NCBI GenBank assembly: GCA_964632315.1
Contig: CAZWEM010000011.1
Location: 1-64,000, forward strand
Direction: 5' to 3'
DNA: 64,000 bases
DNA from: an uncultured archaeon
GTDB lineage: Archaea > Asgardarchaeota > Lokiarchaeia > Sigyniarchaeales > SOKP01
The notes beneath the pieces are model-generated. The model was not told the origin of the DNA. It ran no database searches and saw nothing but the letters and a program-made list of their open reading frames with translations. The number at the start of each line of letters is the position of its first letter. Position 1 is the first letter of the stretch. Below are positions 36,581 to 41,497 of this stretch, piece by piece. The translations under genes were made by a program, and so were the position numbers.

Positions 36581-37453
36581 TTAAAGATTCTCTATAACTG
36601 TTCCTCGTCGAGTTCGATGGAATTTCAGTCCAATTTCATCAGCACTGTAACCCATTGCCAAAGCAAGTAATTCCGTTACATATAAGATGGGAATACTATA
36701 CAATTGTTTCAAAGTTTTCTGTGTAAGTTGTTCAGAGTCCATTCTTTGAAAACATGCGGGACAATTAACAACTATACAATTAGCACCAGCTTTTTTAATT
36801 GAGTCTAATTTCTTATTTAAAATCGCATCTCCATGCTCTGGATATGCCCCAGCAACAGCATTTCCACAACATAATGCTAATTCATCATAATCAACTACAC
36901 TCGCTCCCGAAGCTTCAACTAGTTTTTTTAGGGTTGTAGGTCTCATCGGATCATCCGATTCCATCCATTCAGCAGGTCTCATGTAATGACATCCAGGATG
37001 GCATGCGACTTTTAACCCAGTAAGAGGTTTTGTCACTGCAGCCTTTACTTTATCGATGTTTTCTTTCAAAACATCAACAAAATGCCTTACATCAATTGTG
37101 CCCTTATACTCCTTTCCAATTTTGGATAATTCAGCATTCACCTTTTCCTTTTTCAAATTATCATGCTTTAATTGGTATCGAACACCTCGAAGCGTGTTAG
37201 TACAGCCATTACATAGGGAAATAATATCTTTCCCTTCGGCTTCTGCTAAGCATAAGTTCATCGCTCCGAGCGTTAACCAAGCGTCGTTATCAAAGCTTTT
37301 CATTCCTGTAGGATCGGGGCAACAACTGAAAGGTGCGTCTGACGTTTCAATATTCACCTTCTCAAAAACTTTTCTGGAGGCAGCTTCAATAAAGGGAATC
37401 CTATTCCCGATAGTACATCCTTCAAACATTTTATATTCTGTCATTTTTATCAT
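36581..37453 (-). CDS. hdrB: Heterodisulfide reductase subunit B
   Basis: Two CCG domains: GC..SCCP..CNGC and HPGCH..CCG..CPAC. Confidence 0.92.
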   Translation of the reverse strand: MIKMTEYKMFEGCTIGNRIPFIEAASRKVFEKVNIETSDAPFSCCPDPTGMKSFDNDAWLTLGAMNLCLAEAEGKDIISLCNGCTNTLRGVRYQLKHDNLKKEKVNAELSKIGKEYKGTIDVRHFVDVLKENIDKVKAAVTKPLTGLKVACHPGCHYMRPAEWMESDDPMRPTTLKKLVEASGASVVDYDELALCCGNAVAGAYPEHGDAILNKKLDSIKKAGANCIVVNCPACFQRMDSEQLTQKTLKQLYSIPILYVTELLALAMGYSADEIGLKFHRTRRGTVIENL

Positions 37454-37460
37454 TTCCTCC

Positions 37461-37973
37461 TTACTTTAGTTTTTTATCTGCACCAATTGCCTTTAGTAAA
37501 GATTGTACATCTTCGAGATTTGGCGCTTCCACTGCTGGTAATCCTAATTGCTCTCTCCTTCTCTCAATTGCTGGTTGAGAAGGGATAGCTTTAGCACTAT
37601 CAAATATCGCTTGAGCTTGACCATAAATACTATCCGGTGCTTTTCCTAGTTTAGTTGATTCGTTCTTTAAAAAGGTAAAAATCTCGGTTAGTTCGATATT
37701 CTGTGGACATAATTCATCACATGTATCGCATACAGTACAGCCCCAAATCGTTAAGGGATCGGCATCGAATATGGCGTCTTTATACCCTAATAATGCATTT
37801 AAAATATTAGACCTTGGATTATAGCCTGTGGTAGTGTAAAAATCCATCGAGACAGCGGCTACTGGACAGTTATCCGTGCACCTACTACATTGGTAGCAGT
37901 ATTTAATCACATCGTGCACGTGAAAGTCCATGACCTGCTTTCGAAATTCGAAATCTATAGACATTTTTTTCAC
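37461..37973 (-). CDS. hdrC: Heterodisulfide reductase subunit C
   Basis: CYQCSRCTDNCP and WGCTVCDTCDELCPQ 2x[4Fe-4S]; adjacent to hdrB. Confidence 0.92.
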   Translation of the reverse strand: MKKMSIDFEFRKQVMDFHVHDVIKYCYQCSRCTDNCPVAAVSMDFYTTTGYNPRSNILNALLGYKDAIFDADPLTIWGCTVCDTCDELCPQNIELTEIFTFLKNESTKLGKAPDSIYGQAQAIFDSAKAIPSQPAIERRREQLGLPAVEAPNLEDVQSLLKAIGADKKLK

Positions 37974-38012
37974 ACTTTTTTTTGATTTTTTTCCAATTTA
38001 TTTCATATTTTT

Positions 38013-38084
38013 ATTGGCTTTTACCTTGCAAGGTTAGTCATGACCAGTCTCGTTTTTTTACTGGTTCATTCATCCTAAGCCAAC
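38013..38084 (-). promoter_or_regulatory. Eukaryote-like SECIS element of vhuU
   Basis: mRNA GG-AUGA-AUGAACCAGU-AAAAAAACGAG-ACUGGUCAU-GA-CU: AUGA/GA core, 9-bp helix II with one bulge, apical adenosines; basal GUUGGCUU/AAGCCAAU helix. Confidence 0.8.
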
Positions 38085-38222
38085 ATTCAGCTTGCGGGAA
38101 TATATCTCCTCGCCGTCCTCTTTGGTCACGGTAATGTGGGCGGCACACGATAGTCAGCAATCAAAACATCTGACTACCATTTCGAGGAGGTTTACCATTC
38201 CCTCCGGTATTTCTTCACTCAC
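38070..38222 (-). CDS. vhuU: Selenoprotein VhuU (separately encoded C-terminal Ni-binding peptide of the hydrogenase large subunit); Sec UGA at 38156-38154
   Basis: Manual translation GTG..TGA: MSEEIPEGMVNLLEMVVRCFDC-U-LSCAAHITVTKEDGEEIYSRKLNVGLG; supplies the L2 motif missing from the upstream large subunit; SECIS follows. Confidence 0.92.
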
Positions 38223-38256: not shown

Positions 38257-39564
38257 TTATTTAATCCAAGGATCGGGTAACTTTAATCCTTCCAACGCCT
38301 TATCTTCAAACACTTGTTTAGCAACGTGCATTAAGGTTTTTTCAATGCCCGCAATGTTATGATTGGTCGCTACCAAGAGATTTGCCTTCTTGCAGATTCC
38401 ATCATTGTCGGACCAAATGTTATAGAGTAAAAGACCTCGAGGAGCCTCTGTGACTCCTACACCTTGTCCTTCTCTTGGTTCAACATCTAATGTCTTACAA
38501 TCAGGGTTAACGATATCAGGATCTTGCAATAAAGTAGCGATTACCTCAATTGATTCAACCAATTCGATTAATCGGGCCCAATGATACGCAAAAGTATGGT
38601 GAATTACATCAGTTCCAACTTTTGCTCTCATTGCCTTTAATGCCTCATCTGCTAATGGAGTCGCCATTTTGTCAGCACAATTTAACATTGCTAATGTATT
38701 TGCACGATAAATTCCCTCTGGATAGCCTGCGGGTTTGTAATACATATGCGTTGCATAACTGTGGGGTGGAATGTGTTCTCCTAATGCGTCAAGGTAATTC
38801 TGTGGAGCATAATCAATCTTTTTACCGTCTGGAGTGACGATTCGGATGTCTCCATCATAAATATCATGAACTCCATTCTTAGTCATTCCCACATAATAAG
38901 TGGGAACAACTCCTACGTTTGCTACGACATCCCAATAATCTTCGACTACCTTTAACCCAATCTCGACAGTCTTTTTTGACCATTCAACCTGATCTTCAAT
39001 CTGTTTCAGAAATTTATCTCGAGCATCTTCATCCATCGGTTTTTTCATCCCGCCAACGATTGCACTAATGGGATGGACCGATTTACCGCCAATTTCAGCA
39101 CATAGCTTCTGCCCGAAGTCCATCATTTTCAGAGCCATTGCTCCGACATCAGGCATTTTATTAATAACGTGCACCACATTCCTTAAAGCTGGATCCGCAA
39201 ACGGGCCCAACAAAAAGTCGGGTGCCGCTAATGCGTAAAAGTGAAGCGCGTGCGATGAATATTGTTTCGCATTTTGTAAAAGTTGTCGTAACTTATATGC
39301 TGGTTCGGGTATCTCGACCTTCCATGCATCTTCTACAGCCTTAGTAGGCGTTAGATGATGAGGAATAGGACAAATACCGCAAATTCTTGGCGTGATTCTA
39401 GGGATGTGCTCACAATAACGACCTTCCACAAACTTTTCGAAAAATCGGGTAGATTGAATGTTGAATTGAACGTCCTTTACCGTACCATCATCACCTAGAG
39501 TTAAATGGAGAGCACCATGGCCTTCCAATCTAGTGACTGGTTCAACTTCTATTTCTTTTACCAT
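38257..39564 (-). CDS. vhuA: Group 3c [NiFe(Se)] hydrogenase large subunit, lacking C-terminal L2 motif
   Basis: PVTRLEGHG, PRICGICPIPHH (L1), HFYALAAPDF, EAPRG; ends without DPCxxC. Confidence 0.93.
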   Translation of the reverse strand: MVKEIEVEPVTRLEGHGALHLTLGDDGTVKDVQFNIQSTRFFEKFVEGRYCEHIPRITPRICGICPIPHHLTPTKAVEDAWKVEIPEPAYKLRQLLQNAKQYSSHALHFYALAAPDFLLGPFADPALRNVVHVINKMPDVGAMALKMMDFGQKLCAEIGGKSVHPISAIVGGMKKPMDEDARDKFLKQIEDQVEWSKKTVEIGLKVVEDYWDVVANVGVVPTYYVGMTKNGVHDIYDGDIRIVTPDGKKIDYAPQNYLDALGEHIPPHSYATHMYYKPAGYPEGIYRANTLAMLNCADKMATPLADEALKAMRAKVGTDVIHHTFAYHWARLIELVESIEVIATLLQDPDIVNPDCKTLDVEPREGQGVGVTEAPRGLLLYNIWSDNDGICKKANLLVATNHNIAGIEKTLMHVAKQVFEDKALEGLKLPDPWIK

Positions 39565-39575
39565 ATTTTTTTCAC

Positions 39576-40952
39576 CTACCTGTAATTTTTATTGGCGGCT
39601 AACGTGAACTTTTCGGAAAAGCCTAACTTATCTTTCATCTGAGAAAGCAATTCTTCTTTTGATAAAGCCACGTTAAAGCCCTTAGTCGCTACTTCCGCAA
39701 ATCTCTCAGCTTGGTTAACGTTCCATTCAGTCTGACCATAACAACCAGAACATGGGGCGTTAACTCTTATACATAGCCCGCCGCAGCCTGCTCTCGTGAT
39801 GGGACCTGCACATAGATACCCTTGTTCTATGAAGCAATCTTCCATGTTGGGGAGTCCTTCATAATCTCTCTTGACTCGTGTCATGGTTGATTTACTTCCA
39901 ATGATTCTAGGACAGGTATCACAAACAGTACTGATTTCGGTGAAATCTCGATGATCTCTGAGGTATGACATAATAGTTGAAGCTACTTGTTCCGTTTCTG
40001 AAGGCAAGTTCGCTAATGGTGTTTGGGGAGTACCTTTTTTCTTAACTTGTTTTAAGATATCACCCGCCAAATCGAACCCAGCCATCAGGGGAACGTTTAA
40101 GAATAGAGCTAAGAATTCGTATAAGTTCTTCTTGTCTCCTGAACTTAATGAATCCGCATTTTTAACCATATCTGTAAGTTTTCCAACACGGGCATCAACG
40201 GCTTTGCTTGGACCAAAACATCCTACACAGGGTTTTCCGTCACTAGTACATTTTAACGAACATCCAGCACTGGTGATAGGACCAAAACAAAGAACACCTT
40301 TTTCTAACACGCAACCACTGTCCCTTAGCACGCATTCACTACAGAATGGTGCATCTGCCATTGGTTGAGGTTTTTGACCGAGTAAGAATTGCACTGCTGA
40401 AATGATTTGTTCGGGTTTAGGCGGACACCCGGCAATATACGCATCGACCTTAATAACTTCATCTAAAGGTACGATCTTGCTTGTAAATCCAGGCATGTGT
40501 ACAGTAGGTTCTTTTGGACTCTCATTGGTAATCGATTCTGCTTGAGTAAATTTTCTATCGATTGCCTCTTGAATATCCCACTGATTTGCCAAACCATGAA
40601 CGTTTCCATAGCACGAGCATGAACCAAAGGCAATGATTAATTGGCATTTTTCACGCATTAATTTAGCTTGCTCAAGATCCTTATTCGTTCTTAAACTGCC
40701 TTCTACGAATCCAACGAGTACATCTCCATCAGGTCTTGCTTTCAGAGAATCTTCCTTGAAATCAACAACTGCGGGCCAATATACAATATCTAATGCAGGG
40801 AGCACCGGTAATAAGCCTAAATCTATGCTTGACTAGCGAAATGGAATCAATGTGCATTTAATAGGCTTTGGTGGCAACCCCAACATATCTGTAAGCAAAG
40901 GAAACCTTCACATTAAATCAGAGTTTTGCATAAATGCCACTTTAATAGCCAT
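39576..40952 (-). CDS. vhuG: Group 3c hydrogenase small subunit, spliced: exons 40952-40917, 40885-40852, 40822-39576 (438 aa), with duplicated C-terminal Fe-S module
   Basis: ORF-track protein (from 40805) lacks the N-terminal CxxC; removing two inserts gives MAIKVAFMQNSDCWGCHQSLLNAHLGLLPVLPALDIVYWP; VEGS, AFGSC, GCPP motifs follow. Confidence 0.9.
40823..40851 (-). other. BHB mRNA intron 2 of vhuG (29 nt)
   Basis: AUUGAUUCCAUUUCGCUAGUCAAGCAUAG; helix AUGC/GCAU, bulges ACA and AGA, inner stem UUGAUU/AGUCAA, outer AA/UU and AAGCCUA/UAGGCUU. Confidence 0.88.
40886..40916 (-). other. BHB mRNA intron 1 of vhuG (31 nt)
   Basis: UUAAUGUGAAGGUUUCCUUUGCUUACAGAUA; helix UCUG/CAGA, bulges AUU and UAU, 10-bp inner stem, outer AAC/GUU. 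Confidence 0.9.
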
Positions 40953-41497
40953 TTTTCATCAATTTTTTTGTTTTTGTTTGTTTTTTATTTTAATTGGCTA
41001 ATTTGTGTTGTGAAATTAGTTATGAACTTTAAATCATAATCTAATAAAAAATGTTCTATTTTCTTTTTATTGGCTTTTCTTTAAGTATACTATCCAGTCT
41101 GTATATTGAATAAGCATTCATAATTGTTAGATAGAATTGTCAAATCAATTAGTCATGCGAATAATTTTGAATGAGTATTCACGAGATGAGGATGGTTTAA
41201 GATTTTAGATTTTACAAGAACTCTTATTTGAATGATATCATATTGATAATTTTTTATAAAAATCTCTGCTTAGAGAGAGTTTTTTGGTTAAAATACTTGT
41301 TAAAAACCATTAATTGCAAAATAAATTTATACTAATAAGTGAGAAAAGTAGTACATGAAGATTAAAGAGCAAATTTTTCCCTAAAAACTAACCATTCTCA
41401 TCTGCTTTTCTTATCCAAATTCATGAATTCATGAATATTATAAGTGTTTAAATTTAATATTACTATTCAGTCCCTAAAGATTGATCATTCTCGAAGA

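What the first reader, a model, noticed from the sequence alone, without database searches (positions are those of the whole stretch)
40886..40916. vhuG intron 1: strict h-B-H-B-h' motif, 31 nt
mRNA: AAC-UCUG-AU^U-UAAUGUGAAGG-UUU-CCUUUGCUUA-CAGA-UA^U-GUU. It has a 4-bp central helix UCUG/CAGA, two 3-nt bulges, a 10-bp inner stem (one bulged U) and an outer AAC/GUU stem. Cleavage after the second base of each bulge (the canonical EndA rule) gives UCU GAU UGU UGG GGU UGC = S-D-C-W-G-C. The structure-based and protein-based boundaries were derived independently and agree.
Basis: partly seen in the sequence, partly recalled or inferred. Interest (0 to 1): 0.9.

Follow-up and report, generated by a model that had tools for sequence, protein, structure and literature searches.

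The report
tRNA-type mini-intron in Asgard hydrogenase gene
A 31-base insert shaped like an archaeal tRNA intron breaks the start of a hydrogenase gene in a Lokiarchaeia-type (Asgard) archaeon, and comparison with relatives shows that the mRNA almost certainly has to be cut and rejoined, which papers report inside a coding sequence only for the cbf5 gene of Crenarchaeota.

Summary
Window 40886-40916 (minus strand) is a 31-nt insert between codons 12 and 13 of a VhuG/MvhG-like [NiFe]-hydrogenase small-subunit gene. It has exact bulge-helix-bulge geometry: outer AAC/GUU, central UCUG/CAGA, bulges AU|U and UA|U, and a 10-bp inner stem.

Cutting after the second base of each bulge restores ...NSD-CWGC..., the motif found in an uninterrupted paralog and in about 90 uninterrupted orthologs.

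- **Conservation:** four other species carry a different 31-nt sequence at the same site. The fold is kept: 94% of cells pair, and 7 of 16 pairs change on both sides.
- **Near-identical intron-free alleles:** these lack exactly these 31 nt.
- **Selection:** intron-bearing genes have dN/dS of 0.05-0.12.
- **Enzymes:** the genome encodes two EndA paralogs and RtcB.
- **Second intron:** a 29-nt BHB insert (40823-40851) follows a 34-nt micro-exon.
- **Origin:** against a 96%-identical intron-free allele, 22 of 63 mismatches fall in the 58 nt around the introns. This suggests the introns arrived on a recombination tract.

No RNA reads covered the site, so splicing is inferred, not shown. The organism is a Promethearchaeota MAG.

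This scan has noted such inserts before, in other genes of this genome and in other Asgard genomes. I checked two of them here (GAPDH and EF-2).

The parts
40917..40952 (-). Exon 1 of the small-subunit gene: ATG plus 11 codons (MAIKVAFMQNSD)
   Evidence: It aligns with the first 12 codons of intron-free orthologs. Against L036 it shows 4 synonymous and 2 non-synonymous changes.
40886..40916 (-). Intron 1 (the finding): 31-nt BHB insert. The 5' cut falls between 40917 and 40916, the 3' cut between 40886 and 40885.
   Evidence: central 4/4, outer 3, inner 3+7 with one bulged U; covariation; alleles lacking exactly these 31 nt.
40852..40885 (-). Exon 2: 34-nt micro-exon encoding CWGCHQSLLNA plus the first base of a His codon. 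It carries the N-terminal CxxC of the small subunit.
   Evidence: Aligns with the CSGCHISLLDLH stretch of MvhG 5ODC_E. All 9 differences from L162 are synonymous.
40823..40851 (-). Intron 2: 29-nt BHB insert. Central AUGC/GCAU, bulges AC|A and AG|A, 6-bp inner stem, outer AA/UU followed by the exon-exon helix AAGCCUA/UAGGCUU.
   Evidence: of four protein-compatible registers, only this one has 4/4 central pairs. Six other alleles carry 28-30-nt inserts at the same site; present in the MFE fold.
39576..40822 (-). Exon 3: the rest of the gene. The spliced CDS is 1317 nt, giving 438 aa, the same as the orthologs.
40797..40916 (-). Tract that differs from the otherwise 96%-identical intron-free allele L162: both introns plus 58 nt of exon sequence
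   Evidence: 22 of 63 mismatches lie in this patch (P = 1.7e-14). The patch differs at 5 of 62 positions from L045 and 7 of 62 from L036, but at 22 of 62 from L162.
38257..39564 (-). VhuA-like large subunit that lacks the C-terminal Ni-binding motif
   Evidence: NF041785 VhuA, 471 bits, below the cut-off.
38070..38216 (-). VhuU-like peptide with an in-frame TGA (Sec) in ...RCFDC-U-LSCAAH
   Evidence: NF041786 VhuU, 52.6 bits, below the cut-off of 70.

Best explanation
**What it is.** Window 40886-40916 is a bulge-helix-bulge intron in the pre-mRNA of a VhuG/MvhG-like hydrogenase small subunit.

**How it most likely works**
1. The transcript folds so that the last exon-1 bases (UCUG) pair with the 3' end of the intron (CAGA). 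This presents two 3-nt bulges, 4 bp apart.
2. The heteromeric splicing endonuclease EndA cuts after the second base of each bulge, and RtcB joins the exons.
3. A second intron 34 nt downstream is removed in the same way.
4. Only the doubly spliced mRNA encodes the N-terminal CxxC, which ligates the proximal Fe-S cluster, in frame with the other 414 codons.

**Shown**
- The geometry, the boundaries and the covariation.
- Precise presence or absence of the insert among alleles.
- Purifying selection on the host gene.
- The enzyme genes in the genome.

**Inferred**
- The cleavage and ligation themselves.
- That EndA is the enzyme.

**Origin in this lineage.** The introns most likely entered on a short recombination tract from a related lineage.
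For: **Frame and motif**
- Removing 31 nt and then 29 nt turns a 14-codon stub plus an N-terminally truncated ORF into a 438-aa protein.
- Its start, MAIKVAFMQNSD-CWGCHQSLLNAH-LGLLPVLPALDIVYWP, matches the uninterrupted paralog, about 90 orthologous alleles and MvhG 5ODC_E from residue 2.

**Same site in other species**
- L036, L037, L089 and L009, from four species, carry 31-nt inserts at the same site, from several independent assemblies (titles for L036, L037 and L089). This rules out an assembly artefact.
- On the five-allele alignment (these four and the window) 93.8% of cells pair, against 36-55% when the partners are slid, and 7 of 16 pairs change on both sides. One of these is the central pair U-A to C-G, where a synonymous Ser codon change is matched by an intron change.

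**Precise presence or absence**
- L110 is 96% identical to L037, upstream DNA included, and lacks exactly the 31 nt.
- L106, L162 and L163 lack exactly both inserts.

**Not a pseudogene**
- dN/dS is 0.05-0.12, including between pairs that both carry the intron.
- The 409-codon ORF stays open in a genome of about 33% GC.
- Exon 2 differs from L162 only by synonymous changes.

**Enzymes and context**
- The genome has two EndA paralogs, the better one nearest the Aeropyrum EndA chain 3P1Z_B, and one RtcB.
- Asgard EndA is reported to be (alpha-beta)2 with the L1 loop linked to broad specificity (PMC5829648).
- GAPDH (31 nt) and EF-2 (30 nt, in-frame TAA) in the same genome carry similar inserts whose removal restores INGFGRIGR and ...DEEQERGIT.
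Against: - **No RNA evidence.** The three metatranscriptome runs and one further run of unrecorded type that hold parts of this operon gave no contig over 40822-41100.
- **Folding energy does not favour the BHB.** Z-scores are -0.41 and +0.49. In four of five alleles the MFE of the isolated 54-mer pairs the 3' bulge differently.
- **The outer helix is short:** 3 bp here and 2 bp in the orthologs.
- **The motif alone is weak evidence.** A genome-wide scan for strict BHB plus ORF merging gave 682 hits against 620-646 for decoy registers.
- **A paralogous small subunit exists** on contig 24, so loss of this copy might be tolerated for a while.
Confidence: 0.82

Rival explanations
1. The gene is a pseudogene or disabled allele, broken by two small insertions. 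The paralog on contig 24 supplies the function.
For: The unspliced frame stops after 14 codons. A 43%-identical paralog with an intact N-terminus exists. Close relatives without the inserts exist.
Against: - dN/dS is 0.05-0.12 on intron-bearing genes.
- The insert persists across species whose dS is about 1 (L036 against L009) while the 409-410-codon ORF stays intact.
- Exons 1 and 2 change almost only synonymously.
- The inserts keep their fold through compensatory changes, which neutral decay would not do.
Confidence: 0.07
2. The insert is skipped by the ribosome (translational bypassing of the T4 gene 60 type, or frameshifting) and is not cut out of the RNA.
For: A stop codon lies three codons after the putative take-off codon GAU, followed by a hairpin, as in gene 60.
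Against: - The only matching GAU near the 3' end (40889-40887) would resume in the wrong frame, giving AUG UUG GGG and not UGU UGG GGU.
- The orthologous inserts have no landing GAU at all.
- Two hops 34 nt apart would be needed.
- The conserved feature is the BHB register, not a codon match.
Confidence: 0.03
3. Translation starts downstream (GTG 40805 or a start inside the insert), giving a protein without exon 1 or without the CxxC. The upstream pieces would be relics.
For: Public annotation calls such products. One example is a 432-aa Promethearchaeota protein that begins MFPRKCWGC..., inside the orthologous insert.
Against: - The missing residues include the CxxC that aligns with the N-terminal CSGC motif of MvhG.
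- Exons 1 and 2 are kept at the protein level, each in its own frame, across intron-bearing species.
- The ORF alone covers only positions 35-125 of the 128-position Pfam profile.
Confidence: 0.05
4. Assembly or sequencing artefact.
For: The source is a metagenome-assembled genome of 119 contigs with 8.6% contamination.
Against: 31-nt inserts at the same site occur in assemblies from several different studies, and 28-30-nt inserts at the second site occur in six more. The run X9 matches the neighbouring parts of the operon at 99% or more but does not cover the site.
Confidence: 0.01

Closest known systems
BHB intron in the cbf5 pre-mRNA of Crenarchaeota (Watanabe 2002; Yokobori 2009, PMC2738675)
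   Same: A short intron inside a protein-coding sequence with a bulge-helix-bulge motif at the exon-intron junctions. It is presumed or shown to be cut by a heteromeric splicing endonuclease. It is patchily present among related species, so it has been gained and lost.
   Different: - The host gene is a hydrogenase small subunit, not cbf5.
- The lineage is Promethearchaeota (Asgard), not Crenarchaeota.
- There are two introns 34 nt apart, flanking a micro-exon.
- Splicing is not yet shown at the RNA level here.
Archaeal pre-tRNA BHB introns, including the many non-canonical ones of Asgard tRNA genes (PMC11291895; bioRxiv 10.64898/2026.10.13.758758)
   Same: Same motif geometry and cut rule, similar length, and the same enzymes (EndA, RtcB). 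Half of the motif is made of exon sequence.
   Different: The exon part is coding sequence, so the pairing bases are also codons. The motif is not supported by a tRNA body.
BHB intron in the 5' UTR of HVO_1309 mRNA, Haloferax volcanii (PMC7714728)
   Same: An mRNA substrate of the archaeal splicing endonuclease, confirmed in vitro and as a circular RNA.
   Different: It is 46 nt long and lies in the untranslated leader, so it does not interrupt a reading frame.
Unconventional splicing of HAC1 / XBP1 mRNA by IRE1 and a tRNA ligase (own knowledge)
   Same: A very short intron (26 nt in XBP1) is removed from a mature mRNA by a protein endonuclease and the tRNA ligase (RtcB in animals). Removal changes the reading frame.
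   Different: The endonuclease is IRE1 and it recognises twin stem-loops, not a BHB. The splicing is a regulated stress response. No regulation is shown here.

Membership tests
Archaeal BHB (splicing-endonuclease) intron | [quoted passage not shown] | tested here: met
   UCUG/CAGA with AUU and UAU bulges at 40922-40916 and 40891-40885.
Archaeal BHB (splicing-endonuclease) intron | Flanking helices h and h' (strict hBHBh' form) | tested here: met
   Outer AAC/GUU (3 bp) and a 10-bp inner stem with one bulged U. The orthologs have only 2 outer pairs.
Archaeal BHB (splicing-endonuclease) intron | Cutting after the second bulge base gives a functional joined product | tested here: met
   The join restores SDCWGC in frame, as in intron-free orthologs of this gene; the paralog reads SSCWGC at the same place.
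Archaeal BHB (splicing-endonuclease) intron | Structure kept by compensatory change among homologous introns | tested here: met
   93.8% of cells pair, 7 of 16 pairs change on both sides, and slid controls give 36-55%. Only five sequences were available.
Archaeal BHB (splicing-endonuclease) intron | Splicing endonuclease and RtcB ligase encoded by the organism | tested here: met
   Two PF01974 genes (103 and 70 bits) and one PF01139 gene (568 bits).
Archaeal BHB (splicing-endonuclease) intron | Spliced RNA or excised intron observed | tested here: inconclusive
   No contig of runs X1-X3 or X9 covers 40822-41100.
Archaeal BHB (splicing-endonuclease) intron | Cleavage by EndA in vitro at the predicted phosphates | not testable with these tools
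   Needs recombinant enzyme and a transcript.
Translational bypass element (T4 gene 60 type) | Matched take-off and landing codons that keep the downstream frame | tested here: not met
   The only GAU near the 3' end resumes in the wrong frame, and the orthologs have no landing GAU.
Self-splicing group I or II intron | Ribozyme core of hundreds of nucleotides | tested here: not met
   The insert is 31 nt.
VhuG / MvhG small subunit of F420-non-reducing [NiFe]-hydrogenase | Family profile match from the N-terminal CxxC onwards | tested here: inconclusive
   - The intron-free ortholog L034 scores 226 bits on NF045875 VhuG (cut-off 450) and E = 5.7e-53 to MvhG 5ODC_E from residue 2.
- The protein is about 140 aa longer than MvhG, with a second Cys-rich module.

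The most novel reading that the evidence does not exclude
In Lokiarchaeia-type Asgard archaea, endonuclease-spliced micro-introns form a turning-over population in ordinary protein-coding genes. They move between lineages by homologous recombination that co-converts the flanking exon, and they settle where the mRNA already forms a hairpin that can serve as the outer helix of the BHB. This hydrogenase gene, with two introns, a 34-nt micro-exon and a visible import tract, would be a caught-in-the-act example.
Probability: 0.35. Interest if true: 0.9.

Novelty: new member of a known kind. Interest (0 to 1): 0.85.

Why it matters
In the papers I could search, protein-enzyme splicing inside an archaeal coding sequence is documented for one gene only, cbf5 of Crenarchaeota. 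A single further mRNA intron is known in a 5' UTR.

Here the same mechanism appears to be required, twice, to make a core energy-metabolism enzyme in a member of the archaeal group closest to eukaryotes. Similar inserts sit in GAPDH and EF-2 of the same genome.

If confirmed, three things follow:
- Interrupted protein genes and obligatory mRNA splicing by the tRNA-splicing machinery are part of Asgard biology.
- Current gene calls for these genomes are systematically wrong at such sites. Public annotation starts this gene's orthologs inside the insert.
- How introns are gained and lost can be studied in near-identical alleles with and without the intron.

Tried and rejected
**RNA evidence**
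- One search found 8 metatranscriptome runs and one run of unrecorded type.
- Laying X1, X2, X3 and X9 gave no contig over 40822-41100 and no joints. Nothing can be said about splicing or expression of the 5' end.

**Free-energy folding**
- Folding of 66 nt and 201 nt gave z-scores of -0.41 and +0.49. Thermodynamic stability is therefore not evidence here.
- The canonical BHB lies 2-7 kcal/mol above the MFE of the isolated 54-mers.

**Genome-wide census**
- I scanned for strict BHB (4/4 central, at least 2 outer, at least 3 inner pairs, length 15-60) whose removal merges two open frames of at least 40 codons.
- The result was 682 hits against 620-646 for four decoy registers, in the 38 contigs reached, with no peak at 28-32 nt.
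- Neighbouring genes swamp the signal, so the scan neither counts nor excludes further introns.

**Other checks that led nowhere**
- Searching the genome for copies of either intron with blastn-short found only chance 11-15-nt matches. The introns are not a repeat family.
- ARAGORN found only 29 tRNA genes, so tRNA and mRNA introns could not be properly compared.
- I looked for a spliced transcript among database proteins. The 98%-identical 437-aa protein P0001 lies on a contig with 326 nt of matching upstream DNA, and its exon patch is a different allele, so it is an intron-free gene and not a spliced RNA.

**Readings considered and rejected:** translational bypass, pseudogene, downstream start and artefact (see the rival explanations).

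Full report
**1. The observation**

On the minus strand the gene starts at ATG 40952 and reads MAIKVAFMQNSD. It then runs into UUA AUG UGA. The long ORF 39576-40805 (409 aa, Pfam PF01058) covers only positions 35-125 of the 128-position profile, so it lacks its N-terminus.

- outer helix AAC (40925-40923) with GUU (40884-40882)
- central helix UCUG (40922-40919) with CAGA (40891-40888)
- bulges A-U|U (40918-40916) and U-A|U (40887-40885)
- an inner stem of 10 bp with one bulged U and a UUU loop

This is the pre-tRNA arrangement: helix, 4-bp helix, 3-nt bulge, helix on each strand. Cutting after the second bulge base joins GAU to UGU.

**2. Is it more than chance?**

The motif alone is weak evidence.
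- A fixed register with 4/4 central, at least 3 outer and at least 3 inner pairs occurs at 1.1e-4 of positions in this genome. Looser look-alikes turn up several times in any 60 nt.
- Free-energy folding is not significant (z = -0.41 and +0.49). The canonical fold lies 2-7 kcal/mol above the MFE of the isolated 54-mers. The 201-nt MFE does contain the central helix, the 5' bulge and the inner stem of intron 1, and the whole of intron 2.

The weight comes from agreement with independent evidence.
- A paralog on contig 24 reads MQLSSCWGCHQSLLNAHLNLLPILPALDIVYWP without interruption.
- About 90 orthologous alleles read MAVKVAFMQxSDCWGCHQSLLNAHLGLLPVLPALDIVYWP.
- Only two cut registers give that protein, and the BHB register is one of them.

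**3. Relatives**

The window belongs to a 4.45-Mb genome in 119 contigs. Its orthologs carry titles such as 'Promethearchaeota archaeon'.

*Same site, different sequence.* L036, L037, L089 and L009, from four species in several assemblies of different studies, carry 31-nt inserts at the same site. Their sequence differs from the window's, but their central helix UCCG/CGGA keeps the same register. On the five-sequence alignment the named structure pairs in 93.8% of cells, against 36-55% when the partners are slid. Seven of 16 pairs change on both sides. These include:
- the central pair U-A to C-G, where a synonymous Ser codon change in exon 1 is matched by an intron change
- an outer pair A-U to G-C, formed between an exon-1 codon and the third base of the Cys codon

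A sixth, more distant allele (L084) has a 31-nt insert cut one base earlier, with a 3/4 central helix.

*Precise presence or absence.* L110 is 96% identical to L037, upstream DNA included, and lacks exactly the 31 nt. L106, L162 and L163, the window's nearest relatives, lack exactly both inserts.

*Distribution on the tree.* On a 95-allele tree intron 1 needs at least 5 gains or losses, and intron 2 at least 3.

**4. The second intron**

Thirty-four bases downstream, 40851-40823 is a 29-nt insert with:
- central helix AUGC/GCAU
- bulges AC|A and AG|A
- a 6-bp inner stem
- outer AA/UU, followed by the exon-exon helix AAGCCUA/UAGGCUU

Of the four protein-compatible registers only this one has 4/4 central pairs. 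Six other alleles carry 28-30-nt inserts there in the same register.

Removing both inserts gives 36 + 34 + 1247 nt = 438 codons plus stop, the length of the orthologs. The micro-exon encodes CWGCHQSLLNA plus the first base of the His codon. It aligns with the N-terminal CSGCHISLLDLH of MvhG in 5ODC. By established knowledge of [NiFe]-hydrogenase small subunits, this stretch carries two ligands of the proximal Fe-S cluster.

**5. Not a dead gene, not an artefact, not bypassing**

- dN/dS is 0.05-0.12, including between pairs that both carry the intron.
- Exon 2 differs from L162 at 9 sites, all synonymous, although it sits in a frame of its own between two inserts.
- The same inserts occur in several independent assemblies.
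- A gene 60-type hop from GAU to the only downstream GAU would land in the wrong frame, and the orthologs have no landing codon.

**6. Machinery**

The genome has two EndA paralogs over the Pfam cut-off and one RtcB. One EndA paralog is nearest the Aeropyrum EndA chain 3P1Z_B. The other is nearest the M. jannaschii enzyme.

Kaneta et al. (PMC5829648) report that Asgard archaea have the (alpha-beta)2 enzyme with the L1 loop, which they link to broad substrate range. Asgard tRNA genes are known to be heavily interrupted (PMC11291895; bioRxiv 10.64898/2026.10.13.758758).

**7. How the introns got here**

L162 is 96.4% identical to the window over the ORF and 97% identical over 309 nt upstream. 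Yet 22 of the 63 mismatches in 1300 nt lie in the 58 nt that run from 2 nt past the intron-1 site to 26 nt past the intron-2 site (P = 1.7e-14). There are none in the 27 nt before the patch and none in the 83 nt after it.

In that patch the window differs at:
- 5 of 62 positions from L045, an intron-2 carrier
- 7 of 62 positions from L036, an intron-1 carrier that is only 76% identical over the whole gene
- 22 of 62 positions from L162

L162's patch is nearer the sister clade (11 of 62 from L034, against 16 of 62 for the window). So the window's version is the imported one. The simplest reading is a short recombination or conversion tract that brought in both introns together with the flanking exon. 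No sampled allele other than the window carries both introns, so the donor is unsampled.

**8. Context in this genome**

I checked two of the scan's earlier notes myself.
- GAPDH on contig 9 has a 31-nt insert (central 3/4, outer 6, inner 7) whose removal restores MAKRVSINGFGRIGR.
- EF-2 on contig 25 has a 30-nt insert with an in-frame TAA, central helix TCAG/CTGA and bulges AU|U and AA|G, just before ...DEEQERGIT.

A motif-plus-ORF census was not informative.

**9. Literature**

In the held library, BHB introns in mRNA are reported only for the cbf5 coding sequence of Crenarchaeota and for the 5' UTR of HVO_1309 in Haloferax. The 2020 Haloferax paper says so explicitly (PMC7714728, PMC2738675). 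Five searches combining Asgard or Lokiarchaeota with BHB, mRNA intron or protein-coding found no report of such introns in Asgard protein genes. Subscription journals are not covered.

**10. Verdict**

The missing piece is RNA: the one lay of public runs had no cover at the site.

In kind this is a new member of the cbf5-type class of endonuclease-spliced mRNA introns. It lies in a new lineage and a new gene, with a tandem arrangement and a visible trace of how it arrived.

Noticed in passing
window 40813-40868 (-); alignment A3 columns 5-10 with 27-32: The exon sequences on either side of the intron-2 site pair with each other even in 83 alleles that have no intron 2 (AAUCCU/AGGAUU, AGUCCC/GGGACU and others). 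84.9% of cells pair, against 17-58% when slid, and 32 cells change on both sides against 13.8 in shuffles. This may be a standing mRNA hairpin that serves as the outer helix for an incoming intron, or a relic of one. It is confounded by codon constraints and relatedness.
   Followed up: partly
window 38070-38216 (-): A small ORF with an in-frame TGA lies downstream of a large subunit that ends ...LPDPWIK without the C-terminal Ni-binding motif. It is a VhuU-like Sec peptide reading ...VRCFDC-U-LSCAAH, where the usual Pro before the Sec is a Cys.
   Followed up: partly
window 39576-40805 (-): The small subunit is about 140 aa longer than MvhG. The C-terminal Cys-rich module of MvhG matches residues 323-433 of the ortholog, and a second, similar module lies at about residues 170-250.
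   Followed up: no
G000 contig 9 (-), around index 77555-77610 of the reverse strand: The GAPDH gene has a 31-nt BHB-like insert inside the INGFGRIGR NAD-binding motif. Unspliced, the frame stops after 16 codons.
   Followed up: partly
G000 contig 25 (-), just upstream of index 26267 of the reverse strand: EF-2 has a 30-nt insert with an in-frame TAA and a TCAG/CTGA central helix, just before ...DEEQERGIT. Only one outer pair forms, so this is a relaxed motif.
   Followed up: partly
whole genome G000: ARAGORN finds only 29 tRNA genes in a genome rated 99.5% complete, 18 of them with predicted introns. Most tRNA genes are probably missed because they are interrupted at non-canonical sites.
   Followed up: no
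P0014 (NCBI, Promethearchaeota): The public annotation of an intron-1-bearing ortholog starts inside the insert (MFPRKCWGC...). Deposited proteins of this family therefore have wrong N-termini wherever the intron is present.
   Followed up: no
L086:1250-1560: In one distant ortholog (Spart_079_MAG) the frame is recognisable only from ...LNVHLGLLDILPALEVVYWP onwards. No CWGC exon was seen in the 250 nt upstream. This could be a longer interruption, a different N-terminus or a misassembly.
   Followed up: no
window 36581-37997 (-): HdrC-like and HdrB-like genes follow the hydrogenase genes, and the paralogous locus on contig 24 has the same arrangement. This points to an Mvh/Vhu-Hdr-type module in a non-methanogen.
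   Followed up: no
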